Positions 30,546 to 45,879 of a stretch of DNA of 46,598 nt are shown one piece after another. Each line of letters opens with the position of its first letter. Position 1 is the first letter of the stretch. The stretch is from Rotaria socialis (taxonomy: Eukaryota), in NCBI GenBank assembly GCA_905331295.1, contig CAJNYD010000221.1, positions 1 to 46,598 on the forward strand. The letters are read 5' to 3'. The notes below the pieces were generated by a model that was given only the letters and a program-made list of their open reading frames with translations, had not been told where the DNA came from and did not search any database. Made by a program: the position numbers and the translations under genes.

Positions 30546-31298
30546 GATTCATCTCCGATAATTATTCATACAACTGCTCATCATTTATCGAATCGATTAT
30601 CAACAAATGCCGATCAATCTTATATTAAAGGAAATCGATTACAATTTTTTTTTGCTTCACCATCCGATTCAATTATTTTCGATGATGATAATACAAATGA
30701 AACAAAATTTCAACAAACTGAACCTGATGCTATATTATCGTCTCTATCATCGTATTGGTATACTTATATAACAAAACATGCGCATTTAAGCTTAAGAGAC
30801 TGCCCCCTCCCCCTCAGGAATCGTTTTTCATTATTCGTGGACCGATTTGTCTGAAATTTTGAGGCAATGCATGTGTTGTATTAAATCAATTTCTTGTAAA
30901 ATTTCGGCTCATAAATGTTTTTCTTTAAAGAGTTATTCACAAATTAGTCCCCAAAATGATGGTGCTCGTAAGGTACCGATTTCTCGAACTGCCAAAGACG
31001 TAGAGAGCTACTTTTTTTTAAATGAAAGAAGAAACCTATGTCCAGAAATATATGTGGCAGTTGAGTTCAGAATTCAGTTGAGTTTGGAATATAATAGTTT
31101 GTAAGAAATTTATAGTGTTAATTATAGGTATAAATGATATGAAACTGAAAAATGAAAGTTTTTATTTCTGCAAATCATTGAAATATTGCTCCAAATGAGT
31201 TCTTATTCAGATGTAGGTAGAAAAATGTTTTTGTACAAAATAATAAAAATCGATTTCTTATTGGTTTTTTCTTGAGCAGTATTGTGGTACAAATAGAA

Positions 31299-31500
31299 AC
31301 ATTGAATAATTGTTGTATATGAATTCAGAATATTTTTTTTCTGATTTTCGTATTGTATTTATTTTAAAACTGAGGGACATGGGGACATTGAATAATTGTT
31401 GTATATGAATTCAGAATATTTTTTTTCTAATTTTCGTATTGTATTTATTTTAAAACTGAGGGACATGGGGACATTGAATAATTGTTGCATATGAACTAAA
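31299..31500. repeat. Tandem repeat, 86-bp unit, about 2.3 copies
   Basis: acattgaataattgttg starts at 31299, 31385 and 31471. Confidence 0.9.
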
Positions 31501-32961
31501 ACTTATTTTTTTAATGATTTTGTTTTCTTTTTTTTTAAATATAGAATTTCGAGAAATTAACTTATGTATTGATCAGTGGTACCTTAAATCTGTTAGTCGA
31601 TAGCCTTATGGTTATTTAGATAATTTTCTAAAAAACGAATATTGGTTTGTTATTGTATTAATACAGTTTACGTCGAATTATTAATTCTTCGGGAGTTTTC
31701 TTAACATGAATTCAGGAATGTTTATTTGGGACGTTGATAGAATGTTGAAAAAATAGTTTAATAAAGTAAGTCAATGTGTCTTCAAAACAGAACAGTTTCA
31801 AAAACCATCGTAACTTCATATAAAAATTGAATGTATGAAGGAGTCTTTTGTATAGAGTTTAAATCAGGGATATATTAAATGTTTGTGAAATTTTCTAGTA
31901 TAAGGGATCAGTGTTATTAGTTGTTTTTATTTTAAACATATCTTTAAGCATCATTGAAATTATCCTTTTAGCGCAATGTAGGATATCGTGTAAAGTAAAG
32001 TTCATAAGATTATTCATGTAGGGGTTCTTAGTTTCTTTCTATTGATTTTTCAATGAAGTTTGACTCTAGAATTTTCGTAAAAATGGTTTTTCGCAAGTTC
32101 TATATGATCCTGTTTCTTTGAAAAATATTGCGTCTTCATCTTGTGAATTATTAAAAAGTGCAGCTAGTAATTAAAAGAATACTTTTTGTGGTTATTAAGG
32201 ATTGTAAATTGATCAAGTTTTTTATTCGAAAAACAAAATTAGGTTATGAACTTGTGGAATAGATCGTGAATAGAAATAGAAATAGAAATTCACTAATGTT
32301 TTATCAATTTTTTTATTGTTTTGATCTCTTAATTCTGGAGATCAAACCGCATTTTTATGTGGAAATTTTATGAATATGTTATGTCTTTGTGAGTAGCGAG
32401 TAATCTGTGCCGTGCTTGATCGTAAAAAACAGTTGTATTCGTTCAAGCAGGAAATGCAGTGATTTTTTACTATCCCTTTTTAAATAGGCAGTTTCATGAA
32501 TTTTGCTCGCGAGTAATTTATTGGTGTGGAATTAAGTATAAAAAAGTTATGAATATTTATTTTTATTATTGTTTTTAGTGTGAGCCTGTGCAGATTATAG
32601 GATGAAAGAAACAGTACACTAATTGAATCATTTGATATGTGCGTCATCTTGCGGAGATGTGCGATCTTTTTATTTACTAGTGGTGACATATATGATTCAT
32701 ATATGAAGAATGAAATCATAGTTATCATTCAGTTTATATTTTAGCGTTCATTACTTCATTTTAATTTGATGGTTTGAAAACAAATTTTTTGGTACAATTG
32801 TTTATTAATTGAACTGTTCCACTATTATACAGATAGATTGTTAGAAATATGCAGATAACAAAAAAAAAAGAAAGTATGCATCTTGATGATTGAAAATGTT
32901 TCAAACATTTCGTTGAAAAAAAAATCATATAGTCCGAGTTTTGATTTGAAAGTTTTTATCA

Positions 32962-35900
32962 TCATTTGCGTTTTATTTTCTTCTTTTTAATTTCAATTGT
33001 TTTCGTTCTTCGTTTAGATTTTTGTGCACGAGCGGTATTACTGCTTAATGGTTCAGCATTTGATGATGCTGGATTAGAAATTGATGAATCTAAGAATATA
33101 AATGAAAATTAAGTTATATTCATTATTGAAATCATGTATTGAGAAGAAATAGTCCTTATGTCACATTTAGTAGTATGTTTGAAAATGTAACTTCATATGA
33201 TTCTGTTAAATAATAAGAAACTGTTGTTTCTCACGTTTTAGTGAATGTGACACAAAGAAGGTCAATTACCGTTAGTTTCAAAAGAAGGTCGAGCGATACT
33301 TGTCGAAGCGATATTCGATATATTATTTTGAAATCCGGTTAGAATATTTGTTACATTATCAAAATTATGAAGTGTCGTAGTTGAAACATGTCGTTCAGAA
33401 GTGTTCATGGTTGTTTTATTGTTAGTAGGAATAGTGATATTTTCTAATGGCATGATGATATCAGATGAACCAATAAATTGATTTTTCTGAGGATCTAATT
33501 TAGTATGATTTAATGATTCAGGAGATATTATATGACTGAATGAAGCTAAAATATGTCAGGAATATTTTTTTAATATTATATATCTATTAATTAATTCTTA
33601 CTATGCATGTTAGAATGGATCTTATCCGAGTTATTGTGGAGTTTATTAATGTATTTTAGAATAGAATCGTTAGTTGTCAGCATTGCTAGAAATAAATAAT
33701 TAGCATTGTATTGATTAATTATTTGGATCATACTTTCGCTGATATCTTCAAATTGATTAGTAGTCACCTGAACTGGTGTTGATTGGTTGTTGAATGTTAC
33801 GTTTTCAACGTTCGATGATAGCAAATTAGTTGTTAATGTGGAATTATTATTAAATTGTGTTTCAGCTTAAATGTAAATTTTTATTCATTTTTTTTATATT
33901 ATAGTTCAATATGTAATACTTAGCGTCTGCAGATTTGAATGCAATATTTCGATATGAGTTGGAGAACCTGAGATATTAACTGTTTGGCTTACGGAAGATA
34001 TTATTGATGGTGTGCGTGATTGAATTAATGTATTTGATAATTCAGTCTTAGGATTTTTCGACGCGTTTTGAATTGTTGGTTTTATGCCTAGTACAAAAGA
34101 ACGAGTGTATTAGTTTCCAAGTGTTTTTTTTTGTAATATAGTACATTTGTTTATACTAATTGAAGAATTGTTAGTGGTCGTTTCGATTGCTTGTGTTTCA
34201 ACATTAAGAGTCAGCTGTTCAGTATTAGAATTAATCGTAGTAGTATTAGAATCTAAATTTAATTGCTTTTAATATAGATTCTATCCAGAAAAAGGGATAA
34301 AATATATTGAGTAATCAAGACTTTGCCATGTGTCTTAAATGTTCATATAGCTAATAAATAGGAAAGTATCCTAGAGTATATTTAGTGTTTAGAAGTTAGT
34401 GTGAGACTAGTATCATAATTTTTATGTAGAAGTCATAAAGTAATTCCATTGTTCATTTGTATTATGAAAAGTTCTTATATCTGAAAGGTTACTTGATGTT
34501 TGTAAGTGAAATACATACTATTAAGAAATCGTTCGGGATATTTTTGTTTTAAGTTATTGAATAATGATTTATTATCAGATTGCAACAATACTTGCATAGA
34601 ATCGTTTGTTAGTATTTGTTTTTGCTTAATAGTACTATTATTCAAGTTTGTCATATAAGTTTTTAGATCTGATTTTGAGTCATTAAGTATTTGCTCAACA
34701 ATTTGTCGTTTTACAGGATTATTTAGTATGTTTGTCGATGGATAGCATTTCATATATACAGATGTATGTGATGTAGTTTGTATGTATGCTAAATGAGATC
34801 GGATTGAGATGAAAATATGTCAAAATAACAGTTTTATTAAAGTTATATTATTGATGGAAAAGTATCTGACTATAGCTATAATTGATTCTATAACTTACAC
34901 CCTTTTCGTATAAATTCATAATTTATTAATTCGTCGAGAGCTGTGTTGACCAGATCAGTTGGAAAACGTCGAAGTACTCCCATTGGTCCTGTTAAGTCAC
35001 GTTTCAGAAAAAACAATTGATTTATTTCGAATATATATTCACGAATTGTATTCAATGATGTTTGAACTATAAAGCGGTGAATTTATCATACAAATAATGA
35101 TAAAAGAATTTACTAGGCAATATCTGATTTCGAGTTGATAATTCGTTTGGAAGTAGTGGACTAGTATTATAAAGTTCGATGAACATTTTTCTTAGATAGT
35201 TGCAGAATAAATATCCAGCTAGTCGTGTACTAGATGATTGTATTTCCAAAACTAAGTTGGCAGATGGATACTTATTTTCAATTAATTGTGTCGTATTGCG
35301 AATAAAATTCAAACTGGTATCATCATATAAGAGTTGGTTTTGATCTTTCAAAATTCTATTTAATATAGAGATATTGTTTATTAACAAGCGAATGACATCA
35401 AAAGAATTATAATCAGAATGAAATCAGCTAGTTTGGGATGTTAATGTTGGCAGATTTACTTTAAATTGAATCAATGAGATTAGTGTTTCATGTTCTTTTT
35501 TTAAGGTGAAGATACTTTCAATTTCTCAAGTATTGGTTATCAAGTAGTTTTATTTTGAGAATTGTATAAATAGAATGATAAATGACTTTTTTTTGATTGA
35601 TTAGCACCAAAGGTATGATGTATTATAAAAATATTTAGTCGAATAGTTATAACTTACTGTAGTATTTCCAGTGAAATTTTTACAATTTGAGAAATGCCAG
35701 CTATTTTACATAAAATTTCAGCGGCTTTGCCAATTCGTGATGCATAATTAATGTCATCTGAATCATCATGTTGAGCTAATTCTTGATATTGGCGTATTTT
35801 ATTGTTGAATTTTTTTGTGCCATGTCGACTTAAAGTAAATATACGATCACCTAATAAACGACAGACAATTAATATTTGTGTTAGACTCGGCTGATTTTGA

Positions 35901-44795: not shown

Positions 44796-45223
44796 GATTA
44801 AACAAATCACTAAAGCAAGATGAGAAAACTCGATATAAATTAATTATTTACAATCAATGCGTCGTAGCAACGAATACTCAATGAGTCACAATGTAAACTA
44901 ATCAAAATAATTTAATCGTATGAAAGTTTATTGATTAAACTTGATCAACAAACAAAAATTTCAGCATAGAAAATATTTTATGTAGGGGCATTTTTTTAAT
45001 TATTTTGTGTCAATGATCTTCATAATAAGTATTTAGATTAATCCGCGTTCTGTTGATGACGAGAATAAATAATGCATATACAATTGCCAATTTAACATGA
45101 AAGCTTTAATTTCATAAGTTATGATAATTCACTTTCATTCAATCTATTGAATGCATATAGGTATATTTATTACCTATTTGTAAAAGAATGAAGACTATGA
45201 GATCGTAAATTTCAAACAAAGAT

Positions 45224-45296
45224 AAAATACAGAAAGAAAAAACTCAGAGAAAAATACAGAAAGAAAAAACTCAGAGAAAAATACAGAGAGAAGAAA
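45224..45296. repeat. Tandem repeat, 27-bp unit, about 2.7 copies, in the right subterminal region of the large element
   Basis: aaaatacagaaagaaaaaactcagaga starts at 45224, 45251 and 45278. Confidence 0.85.
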
Positions 45297-45879
45297 TGAA
45301 TATTTTTTTTCTTTTCGCGCATTCCAAACTCAACTAAATTCCCAAGTCAACTGTAACATATATATATGATTTCTTATAGAGGACTCTACTTGCTTATTTC
45401 TGTATTTCATTATTTATAATGATAGCTATTTATAGATGTTGATATTATGGCGCCTTACTTTTATCGTTTGAATTTTCGTTTTAATTATCTCAAAGATAGA
45501 TTTGATCAAAATCGTGTTTTTGGAACTATATTCTGCAGTGAACGGTAGCACGTTGACAATTTTAGGGAAAAAATGGTATATATTTGAAGTCGAATCTTTT
45601 ATTTTGGATTTAAAGGAGAGTTTTCTGATGTTCGGCTTTTGAGATCATCGCGTCACAAGTTGATAATATTTTTGATATGAGCGTCGAGAAAGAAAAAAGG
45701 AAAGTAAAATCGTGCAGAACTATATTAATGCCGCGCTTCGCACCGCATTAAAAAGAGCGAACGATAAAAGAGCGAAGAAAAAACAGTGAATAAAGCAGAA
45801 CAAAAGAAAAAATGTCGAAAATAGAATGTCGAAGGAAAAAATAGCGAAAAAGTTTATTATAATATTTTTAGACTGCTAA

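What the first reader, a model, noticed from the sequence alone, without database searches (positions are those of the whole stretch)
30795..45626. Candidate new class of large DNA transposon: integrase + RPA-like SSB + DUF3987/MCM-like ATPase, without polymerase, Rep or capsid
Seen: three minus-strand genes in tandem (integrase, SSB, ATPase). Each splices by canonical GT-AG introns into a stop-free ORF, and the block is bounded by an inverted motif and subterminal tandem repeats. Known: Ginger elements typically encode just an integrase-type transposase. Polintons/Mavericks pair an rve integrase with pPolB, a packaging ATPase and capsids. Helitrons can carry RPA-like genes but use a HUH Rep/PIF1 helicase. 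None matches this set. Inference: this is one mobile unit in which a helicase-like ATPase and SSB unwind or copy the element, or process an ssDNA intermediate, using host polymerases, and the DDE integrase inserts it.
Basis: partly seen in the sequence, partly recalled or inferred. Interest (0 to 1): 0.92.

Follow-up and report, generated by a model that had tools for sequence, protein, structure and literature searches.

The report
Rotifer transposon carrying its own primosome
This 14.3-kb jumping gene belongs to a bdelloid rotifer family that carries, besides its integrase, genes for a single-strand-binding protein, a predicted DNA-unwinding helicase and (in relatives, though not in this copy) a primase-polymerase, so the family likely copies itself out of the chromosome with its own replication starter kit.

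Summary
Real, but the ends are misplaced and the title's "without polymerase" holds only for this copy. The element is 31053-45358 (14,306 bp), with 38-bp TGT...ACA inverted ends (32 of 38 match) and a TATA duplication, as in Ginger2. Three intact minus-strand genes: Ginger2/KRBA2-type integrase (553 aa), RPA70-like SSB (307 aa; all 8 introns spliced in a public run), and a DUF3987 ATPase (885 aa) whose model matches MCM helicases. Homologues are bdelloid. In a metagenome contig and, by accession adjacency, in five Rotaria/Adineta species, the same genes sit together, mostly with a fourth gene, a motif-intact PrimPol, between SSB and helicase; this copy has no trace of it. Linked integrases fall in one bdelloid clade. 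Best reading (0.6): a Ginger2-derived family that encodes a primosome for replicative copy-out transposition, with host polymerases doing bulk synthesis; this subfamily would borrow its primase. No activity was tested and no empty site was seen. Ten literature searches found no description; Repbase and Dfam could not be checked.

The parts
31053..45358 (.). Whole element, 14,306 bp
   Evidence: Inverted ends and flanking duplication; left end matches the end of relative L003 at 83% over 41 bp
31049..31052 (+). Left copy of the 4-bp target-site duplication (TATA; inferred target ATATAT = RTATAY)
   Evidence: Sequence; Ginger2 rule from PMC2836005; weak alone because it lies in a TA run
31053..31090 (+). 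Left terminal inverted repeat, begins TGTGG
   Evidence: 32 of 38 match to the right end; contigs of run X10 join it to another flank, and copies of the flanking repeat diverge behind 31049 in X9 and X10
31299..31539 (.). 86-bp subterminal tandem repeat carrying a paired 7-bp motif also repeated near the same end of L003; candidate origin or protein-binding array (inferred)
32962..37573 (-). DUF3987 / MCM-fold AAA+ helicase-like gene, 12 exons, 885 aa: Walker A 93-100, Walker B 145-152, arginine-finger and sensor-2-like motifs, winged helix, disordered tail
   Evidence: Gene model; Pfam DUF3987 E 2e-5 to 6e-5, below the curated cut-off, for this subfamily and 4e-8, above it, for P0005; model of the 99% identical P0004 matches MCMs, Z 16.3; one intron spliced in X20
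37574..39392 (.). Non-coding gap where relatives carry PrimPol; no remnant found
   Evidence: versus L003 7105-9610
39393..41783 (-). RPA70-like SSB gene (two OB folds, DBD-A/B-like), CDS 41781-39842, 307 aa; transcript spliced, with a foreign 5' leader
   Evidence: phmmer to RPA70 1jmc E 2e-9; relatives hit REPA_OB_2 above cut-off; 1395-nt spliced contig in X20
42723..44795 (-). Ginger2/KRBA2-type DDE integrase, 7 exons, 553 aa: H2C2 finger, D160-D219-E256, no GPY/F, C-terminal Cys-rich tail
44911..45183 (-). Short polyadenylated RNA with the same foreign 5' leader, ending upstream of the integrase start
   Evidence: 303-nt contig in X20
45224..45296 (.). 27-bp subterminal tandem repeat (one unit fewer in X9 and X13)
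45321..45358 (-). Right terminal inverted repeat, begins TGTTA on the minus strand
   Evidence: a contig of X10 joins it to another flank
45359..45362 (+). Right copy of the target-site duplication (TATA)

Best explanation
This is a PrimPol-less member of a bdelloid family of Ginger2-derived DNA transposons that carry integrase, SSB, PrimPol and helicase-like genes between short inverted ends, and the family likely transposes replicatively with these genes acting as its own primosome. Shown: ends, intact genes, SSB expression, recurring four-gene linkage, folds and motifs. Inferred steps: (1) the integrase binds the TGT...ACA ends and nicks or joins them, as bacterial copy-out/paste-in transposases do; (2) the hexameric helicase loads near the repeat-bearing end through its winged helix and unwinds the element, the SSB coating the single strands; (3) PrimPol lays primers and host polymerases do the bulk synthesis, giving a free double-stranded copy and leaving the donor in place; (4) the integrase inserts the copy at RTATAY with a 4-bp duplication. 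This subfamily would take its primase from sibling elements or the host.
For: Ends fit Ginger2. L003 carries all four genes inside a matching end, L001 has PrimPol directly upstream of the helicase. Accession adjacency: integrase near helicase 22 of 80, near PrimPol 14 of 80, PrimPol near helicase 13 of 73; maxima in 2000 shifted controls 4, 2, 3; order conserved in all 7 triple loci. Thirteen fused gene models give the order integrase-SSB-PrimPol-helicase. All 15 linked-labelled integrases in the tree fall in one bdelloid clade (19 tips, 0.88, inside 23 tips, 0.994). Distances correlate between genes (rho 0.46, 0.79, 0.73). Helicase model: top 11 matches are MCMs. PrimPol: human PrimPol E 9e-11, top 10 Foldseek hits, motif II in 32 of 32 and motif I in 29 of 32 near-full-length members. 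In phages DUF3987 helicases sit directly downstream of AEP primases (PMC4889955), and one is a proven 5'-3' helicase that binds its PrimPol in an integrase-bearing element (PMC11724360). Spliced SSB mRNA.
Against: No activity or intermediate was tested. This subfamily persists with intact helicase and SSB but no PrimPol, so the element's own PrimPol is not required in cis. Integrase-helicase correlation drops to 0.24 when near-identical pairs are removed, and one node differs between the integrase and helicase trees. The integrase is inverted in L003 and L003's second end was not seen. Many adjacent pairs are the same locus in several individuals, and linkage is read from accession numbers, not DNA. 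The duplication lies in a TA run, and the continuation of the left-flank repeat seen in X9/X10 is not found in the right flank, so the two flanks are not shown to be one pre-insertion site. In run X2 (possibly the source) the body is one unbranched contig: no sign of diverged sister copies. No spliced integrase contig was among the rows shown for X20.
Confidence: 0.6

Rival explanations
1. Cut-out, then amplify: the integrase excises the element, which replicates for several rounds as a free episome from its subterminal repeats before reinsertion (Polinton- or pipolin-like self-synthesis).
For: Same gene set; the prokaryotic PrimPol-DUF3987 pair is read as a replication machinery; a repeat motif conserved between window and L003 could be an origin.
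Against: No processive polymerase is encoded; low apparent copy number. Not separable from the best reading with these tools.
Confidence: 0.18
2. Ordinary cut-and-paste, with the module helping excision or repair of donor and target sites, as the bacterial IS-excision enhancer (AEP plus helicase) does for IS629.
For: IEE precedent (PMC9943667 abstract); PrimPol is dispensable in this subfamily.
Against: A ring-type MCM-fold helicase plus a dedicated SSB is a fork set rather than an end-joining set; other Ginger2 elements move with a single ORF.
Confidence: 0.12
3. Passenger genes: replication or repair genes captured by a Ginger2 element and kept for host benefit or by hitch-hiking, with no part in transposition.
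For: The SSB is well expressed on its own; RPA- and PrimPol-like genes have host homologues.
Against: Fixed order and intact motifs across subfamilies only about 45-75% identical, groupings that cut across Rotaria and Adineta, no other cargo, and a helicase of phage/mobile-element type.
Confidence: 0.05
4. Capsid-less satellite or relic of a DNA virus that replicates only with a helper giant virus.
For: The PrimPol's features also resemble nucleocytovirus primases (score 0.96).
Against: No capsid or packaging ORF; intron-rich genes; no relative confirmed in viral contigs or phages; 4-bp rather than 6-bp duplication; SF6 helicases were not found in eukaryotic viruses.
Confidence: 0.05

Closest known systems
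Ginger2/Tdd DNA transposons (Bao et al. 2010, PMC2836005)
   Same: TGTNR ends, 4-bp duplication, RTATAY target, H2C2 + DDE integrase without GPY/F; nearest non-rotifer proteins are KRBA2-like integrases of molluscs, lancelet, fish and fungi
   Different: Those listed are 2.7-6.7 kb with one transposase and 45-297-bp repeats; this is 14.3 kb with 38-bp repeats and two (family: three) replication genes
Prokaryotic integrative elements and phages with PrimPol + DUF3987 helicase (AgaPP/AgaPH, PMC11724360; PMC4889955)
   Same: AEP primase directly upstream of a DUF3987 SF6 helicase with C-terminal winged helix, next to an integrase
   Different: Bacterial, tRNA-integrating, no introns; here a eukaryote-type PrimPol with UL52-like zinc finger, an RPA70-like SSB, a DDE integrase and inverted ends
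Polintons/Mavericks and Polinton-like viruses
   Same: Large, inverted-repeat elements with a retroviral-type integrase related to Ginger2 and their own replication genes
   Different: No protein-primed PolB, protease, packaging ATPase or capsid; 4-bp not 6-bp duplication; intron-rich
Helitrons carrying RPA
   Same: RPA-like SSB beside a helicase (PMC6431247 passage)
   Different: No HUH Rep, helicase is MCM-fold rather than PIF1, has inverted ends, duplication and DDE integrase
AcademH (known here only from a passage of PMC10045372) and bacterial copy-out/paste-in IS elements (PMC7780238 passages)
   Same: DDE transposon with a helicase gene; replication step in transposition
   Different: AcademH makes 9-10-bp duplications and no primase is mentioned in the passage; IS elements rely on host replication proteins

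Membership tests
Ginger2/Tdd | TGTNR termini | tested here: met
   TGTGG and TGTTA; rule
Ginger2/Tdd | 4-bp duplication at RTATAY | tested here: met
   TATA in ATATAT; one site only, in a TA run, no empty site seen
Ginger2/Tdd | H2C2 + DDE integrase lacking GPY/F | tested here: met
Ginger2/Tdd | Inverted repeats of about 45-300 bp | tested here: inconclusive
   38 bp, imperfect, slightly under the listed range
Ginger2/Tdd | Single transposase ORF, under 7 kb | tested here: not met
   Three genes in 14.3 kb; four in relatives
Ginger2/Tdd | Integrase groups with Repbase Ginger2 reference proteins | not testable with these tools
   No Repbase sequences; tree holds only database homologues
Ginger2/Tdd | Cut-and-paste mechanism | not testable with these tools
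   Needs an assay
Polinton/Maverick | Protein-primed family B polymerase | tested here: not met
   No unassigned ORF over about 100 aa inside the window element or the held part of L003
Polinton/Maverick | Capsid proteins, packaging ATPase, protease | tested here: not met
   Same ORF inventory; the ATPase has an MCM fold
Polinton/Maverick | 6-bp duplication | tested here: not met
   4 bp; 5- and 6-bp flanks differ; rule
Helitron | HUH Rep-helicase, no inverted ends or duplication | tested here: not met
SF6 / DUF3987 replicative helicase | MCM-type AAA+ fold with intact Walker A/B and C-terminal winged helix | tested here: met
   Z 16.3, rmsd 4.4, 276 aligned; winged-helix matches at 439-513; Walker A and B in 21 of 21 aligned
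SF6 / DUF3987 replicative helicase | ATP-dependent DNA unwinding | not testable with these tools
   Shown only for a bacterial DUF3987 protein
PrimPol (AEP), relatives only | Motifs I-III and C-terminal zinc finger | tested here: met
   absent from the window copy

The most novel reading that the evidence does not exclude
A further class of self-replicating eukaryotic DNA transposon: a DDE, inverted-repeat element that carries a full primosome (PrimPol, MCM-fold DUF3987 helicase, RPA-like SSB), fires its own origin and moves by copy-out replication, with a helicase type so far reported from prokaryotic viruses and mobile elements but not from eukaryotic viruses. It would realise the primase-plus-integrase element that a 2019 review (PMC6431247) only speculated about.
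Probability: 0.5. Interest if true: 0.95.

Novelty: new variant of a known kind. Interest (0 to 1): 0.86.

Why it matters
Eukaryotic DDE transposons are treated as cut-and-paste elements that borrow host replication; self-copying ones (Polintons, Helitrons, Teratorn) use other enzymes. A Ginger2 lineage with a primosome would show a replicative route for a retroviral-type integrase in an animal, bring a prokaryote-type DUF3987 helicase into a eukaryotic mobile element, and offer a compact PrimPol-helicase-SSB system for biochemistry. It has persisted in many subfamilies across asexual bdelloids, where transposon survival is an open question, and natural PrimPol-plus and PrimPol-minus subfamilies make the mechanism directly testable.

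Tried and rejected
PrimPol remnant in the window: none by tblastn of 90 proteins from the PrimPol clusters (the only strong hits came from P0181, an SSB), by a six-frame profile search or by blastn. No whole genome was held, so copy number and empty sites could not be counted; L003's second end could not be located. Viral contigs: 175 and 73 pattern matches, none confirmed; phage tblastn with a helicase: no match. PDB sequence search with the helicase profile gave nothing significant; Atlas hits for the helicase exon were 0.89-0.90, leads only. Runs X9 and X10 cover the element body at about 99.5% identity but barely cover 28308-28961 (depth 0.35, 0.48); lack of cover is not proof of another site. 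Joints 31089-45312 (X10, X12) and 31484-45313 (X2) may be internally deleted derivatives but rest on 23-24 letters. No run was on record as RNA; X20 is taken as RNA because its contigs skip introns. Complex prediction of PrimPol with the helicase was not available, so binding is untested. The PrimPol model was mediocre (pLDDT 63). The AcademH paper was not held. Earlier-findings look-ups by sequence and by rotifer words were empty.
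Full report
Host and setting. The helicase exon finds 22 proteins, the named ones all from bdelloid rotifers, with Rotaria socialis and R. magnacalcarata at 99-100%. No genome was held, so context came from protein clusters, one metagenome scan and public runs.

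Ends. They read TGTGG and TGTTA, with TATA on both sides inside an ATATAT target. Bao et al. 2010 (PMC2836005, parts 1-2 of 5 read) define Ginger2 by TGTNR ends, 4-bp duplications and RTATAY targets. In run X10 single contigs join each end to other flanks, and in X9 and X10 copies of the left-flank repeat diverge behind 31049; these contigs may belong to shorter derivatives. Against: the duplication lies in a TA run, and the repeat's continuation was not found in the right flank, so no empty site is shown.

Genes. Exact spliced fits give a 553-aa integrase (7 exons) and an 885-aa ATPase (12 exons), all introns GT-AG, no stops. The integrase has an H2C2 finger, D160-D219-E256 and no GPY/F. The SSB matches RPA70 (E 2e-9). 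Run X20 holds a 1395-nt contig that skips all 8 SSB introns (307 aa), a contig across one ATPase intron, and a short polyadenylated RNA at 45183-44911; the SSB contig and the short RNA begin with the same foreign letters. I read these as the bdelloid spliced leader: its existence is in PMC1925144 (passages), the match of the letters is recalled, not checked. The ATPase model (pLDDT about 90 over the core) matches MCMs in the top 11 rows (Z 16.3, rmsd 4.4, 276 residues), then BrxL, RavA, Cch, with a winged helix at 439-513.

The missing fourth gene. A cluster member from R. sordida fused a PrimPol to the ATPase. Metagenome locus L003 carries integrase (inverted, 64% identical), SSB, PrimPol and ATPase, with a matching end at 16853-16893 and the same repeated subterminal motif; L001 has PrimPol directly upstream of the ATPase. 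The PrimPol search gave 57 proteins, the named ones bdelloid; the profile matches human PrimPol (E 9e-11; top 10 Foldseek hits). Of 32 near-full-length members picked by a motif-III-like pattern, 29 show motif I, 32 motif II, 25 the full zinc finger. The window has no remnant, and five gene models of its subfamily, from both species, fuse SSB straight to the ATPase.

Linkage. I listed members of 10 of 22 ATPase, 10 of 57 PrimPol and 10 of 331 integrase clusters, at most 15 each. Within 70 accession numbers: integrase-ATPase 22 of 80, integrase-PrimPol 14 of 80, PrimPol-ATPase 13 of 73; shifted controls reach at most 4, 2 and 3; the 7 triple loci keep one order. Many pairs also share the contig length. 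That adjacent numbers mean adjacent genes is an inference, the clusters were chosen partly for such matches, and many rows are one locus in several individuals; by my count about eight subfamilies, including the window's and L003, link the integrase, in R. socialis, R. magnacalcarata, R. sordida, R. sp. Silwood1 and Adineta steineri, with PrimPol-ATPase also in A. ricciae. In a tree of 97 of 131 integrases (34 dropped for short coverage, among them 5 of 20 labelled linked; two of the kept labels rest on cluster membership), the 15 linked ones lie in a 19-tip clade (0.88) inside a 23-tip bdelloid clade (0.994). Distances correlate (rho 0.46, 0.79, 0.73; 0.24, 0.63, 0.61 without near-identical pairs). 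Small trees agree at most strong nodes and mix genera; one node conflicts (P0017 stood in for its cluster mate). The window subfamily differs between the two Rotaria species at 3 of 553 and 6 of 885 residues; without a host baseline this does not prove transfer.

Mechanism. PMC4889955 (passages) calls DUF3987 a divergent SF6 helicase of phages, usually with a primase directly upstream and a winged helix, and notes SF6 absent from eukaryotic viruses; PMC5862659 (passages) agrees; PMC11724360 (passages) shows one to be a 5'-3' helicase that binds its PrimPol in an integrase-bearing element. The rotifer module repeats this order and adds an SSB. It lacks a processive polymerase (that PrimPol is poorly processive is recalled), so it looks like a primosome. 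Copy-out/paste-in transposition needs such a replication step after a single nick (PMC7780238 passages), and Ginger integrases are related to IS3/IS481 transposases. I commit to replicative copy-out with host bulk synthesis (0.6); episomal amplification (0.18), IEE-like repair help (0.12; PMC9943667 abstract), passengers (0.05) and viral satellite (0.05) are the rivals. All mechanistic steps are inferred.

Novelty. Ten searches (listings, with passages as stated) showed no such element. The bdelloid survey PMC7943196 has no main-text hit for primase, helicase or Polinton (supplements not opened, and its repeat libraries may name the integrase). PMC6431247 (passages) speculates that polymerase plus primase plus integrase could yield new elements. 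Repbase, Dfam and most subscription papers were out of reach. Unchecked notes of this scan report Mutator- and Merlin-type elements with PrimPol and SF3 helicase: a hint of convergence, not support. Verdict: a Ginger2-derived family with a new gene set; categorically new if the replication role is shown.

Noticed in passing
window 44911-45183, 41783: Two transcripts start with the same foreign leader; the short one ends in poly(A) just before the integrase, which may mean one polycistronic unit cut by trans-splicing with early termination damping the integrase.
   Followed up: partly
proteins P0040, P0050 (R. magnacalcarata): Helicase gene models run into an Argonaute fragment (ArgoL1, PAZ, ArgoL2); the bacterial PrimPol-DUF3987 element also carries an Argonaute, probably by coincidence.
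   Followed up: no
L003 495-2540; 7530-8620; 15658-16815; 17046-18645: Integrase is inverted; the PrimPol intron holds a 1-kb stretch with a Tc1-like piece (motif recalled, no Pfam hit); a 1.16-kb TTAA-flanked inverted-repeat element sits in the subterminal region; beyond the end lie Josephin and helicase-like fragments.
   Followed up: partly
proteins P0420, P0446, P0450, P0454, P0458, P0459, P0460, P0465: Distant relatives of the helicase (about 15-25% identical, six with DUF3987 hits) of unknown origin and context.
   Followed up: partly
window 9700-21950: Host aminotransferase gene spread over long introns (Aminotran_1_2 at 10601-10879; tyrosine aminotransferase by recalled resemblance).
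   Followed up: no
window 22864-23584: Internally deleted Tc1/mariner copy with 73-bp inverted ends.
   Followed up: no
   Followed up: partly
window 4-1794 and 18092-19620: Two inverted copies of a dispersed repeat, about 83% alike.
   Followed up: no
proteins P0009, P0063, P0154, P0155: Other transposon pieces (TTF-type finger, MULE and similar) fused into gene models of family members, i.e. nested insertions in decaying copies.
   Followed up: no
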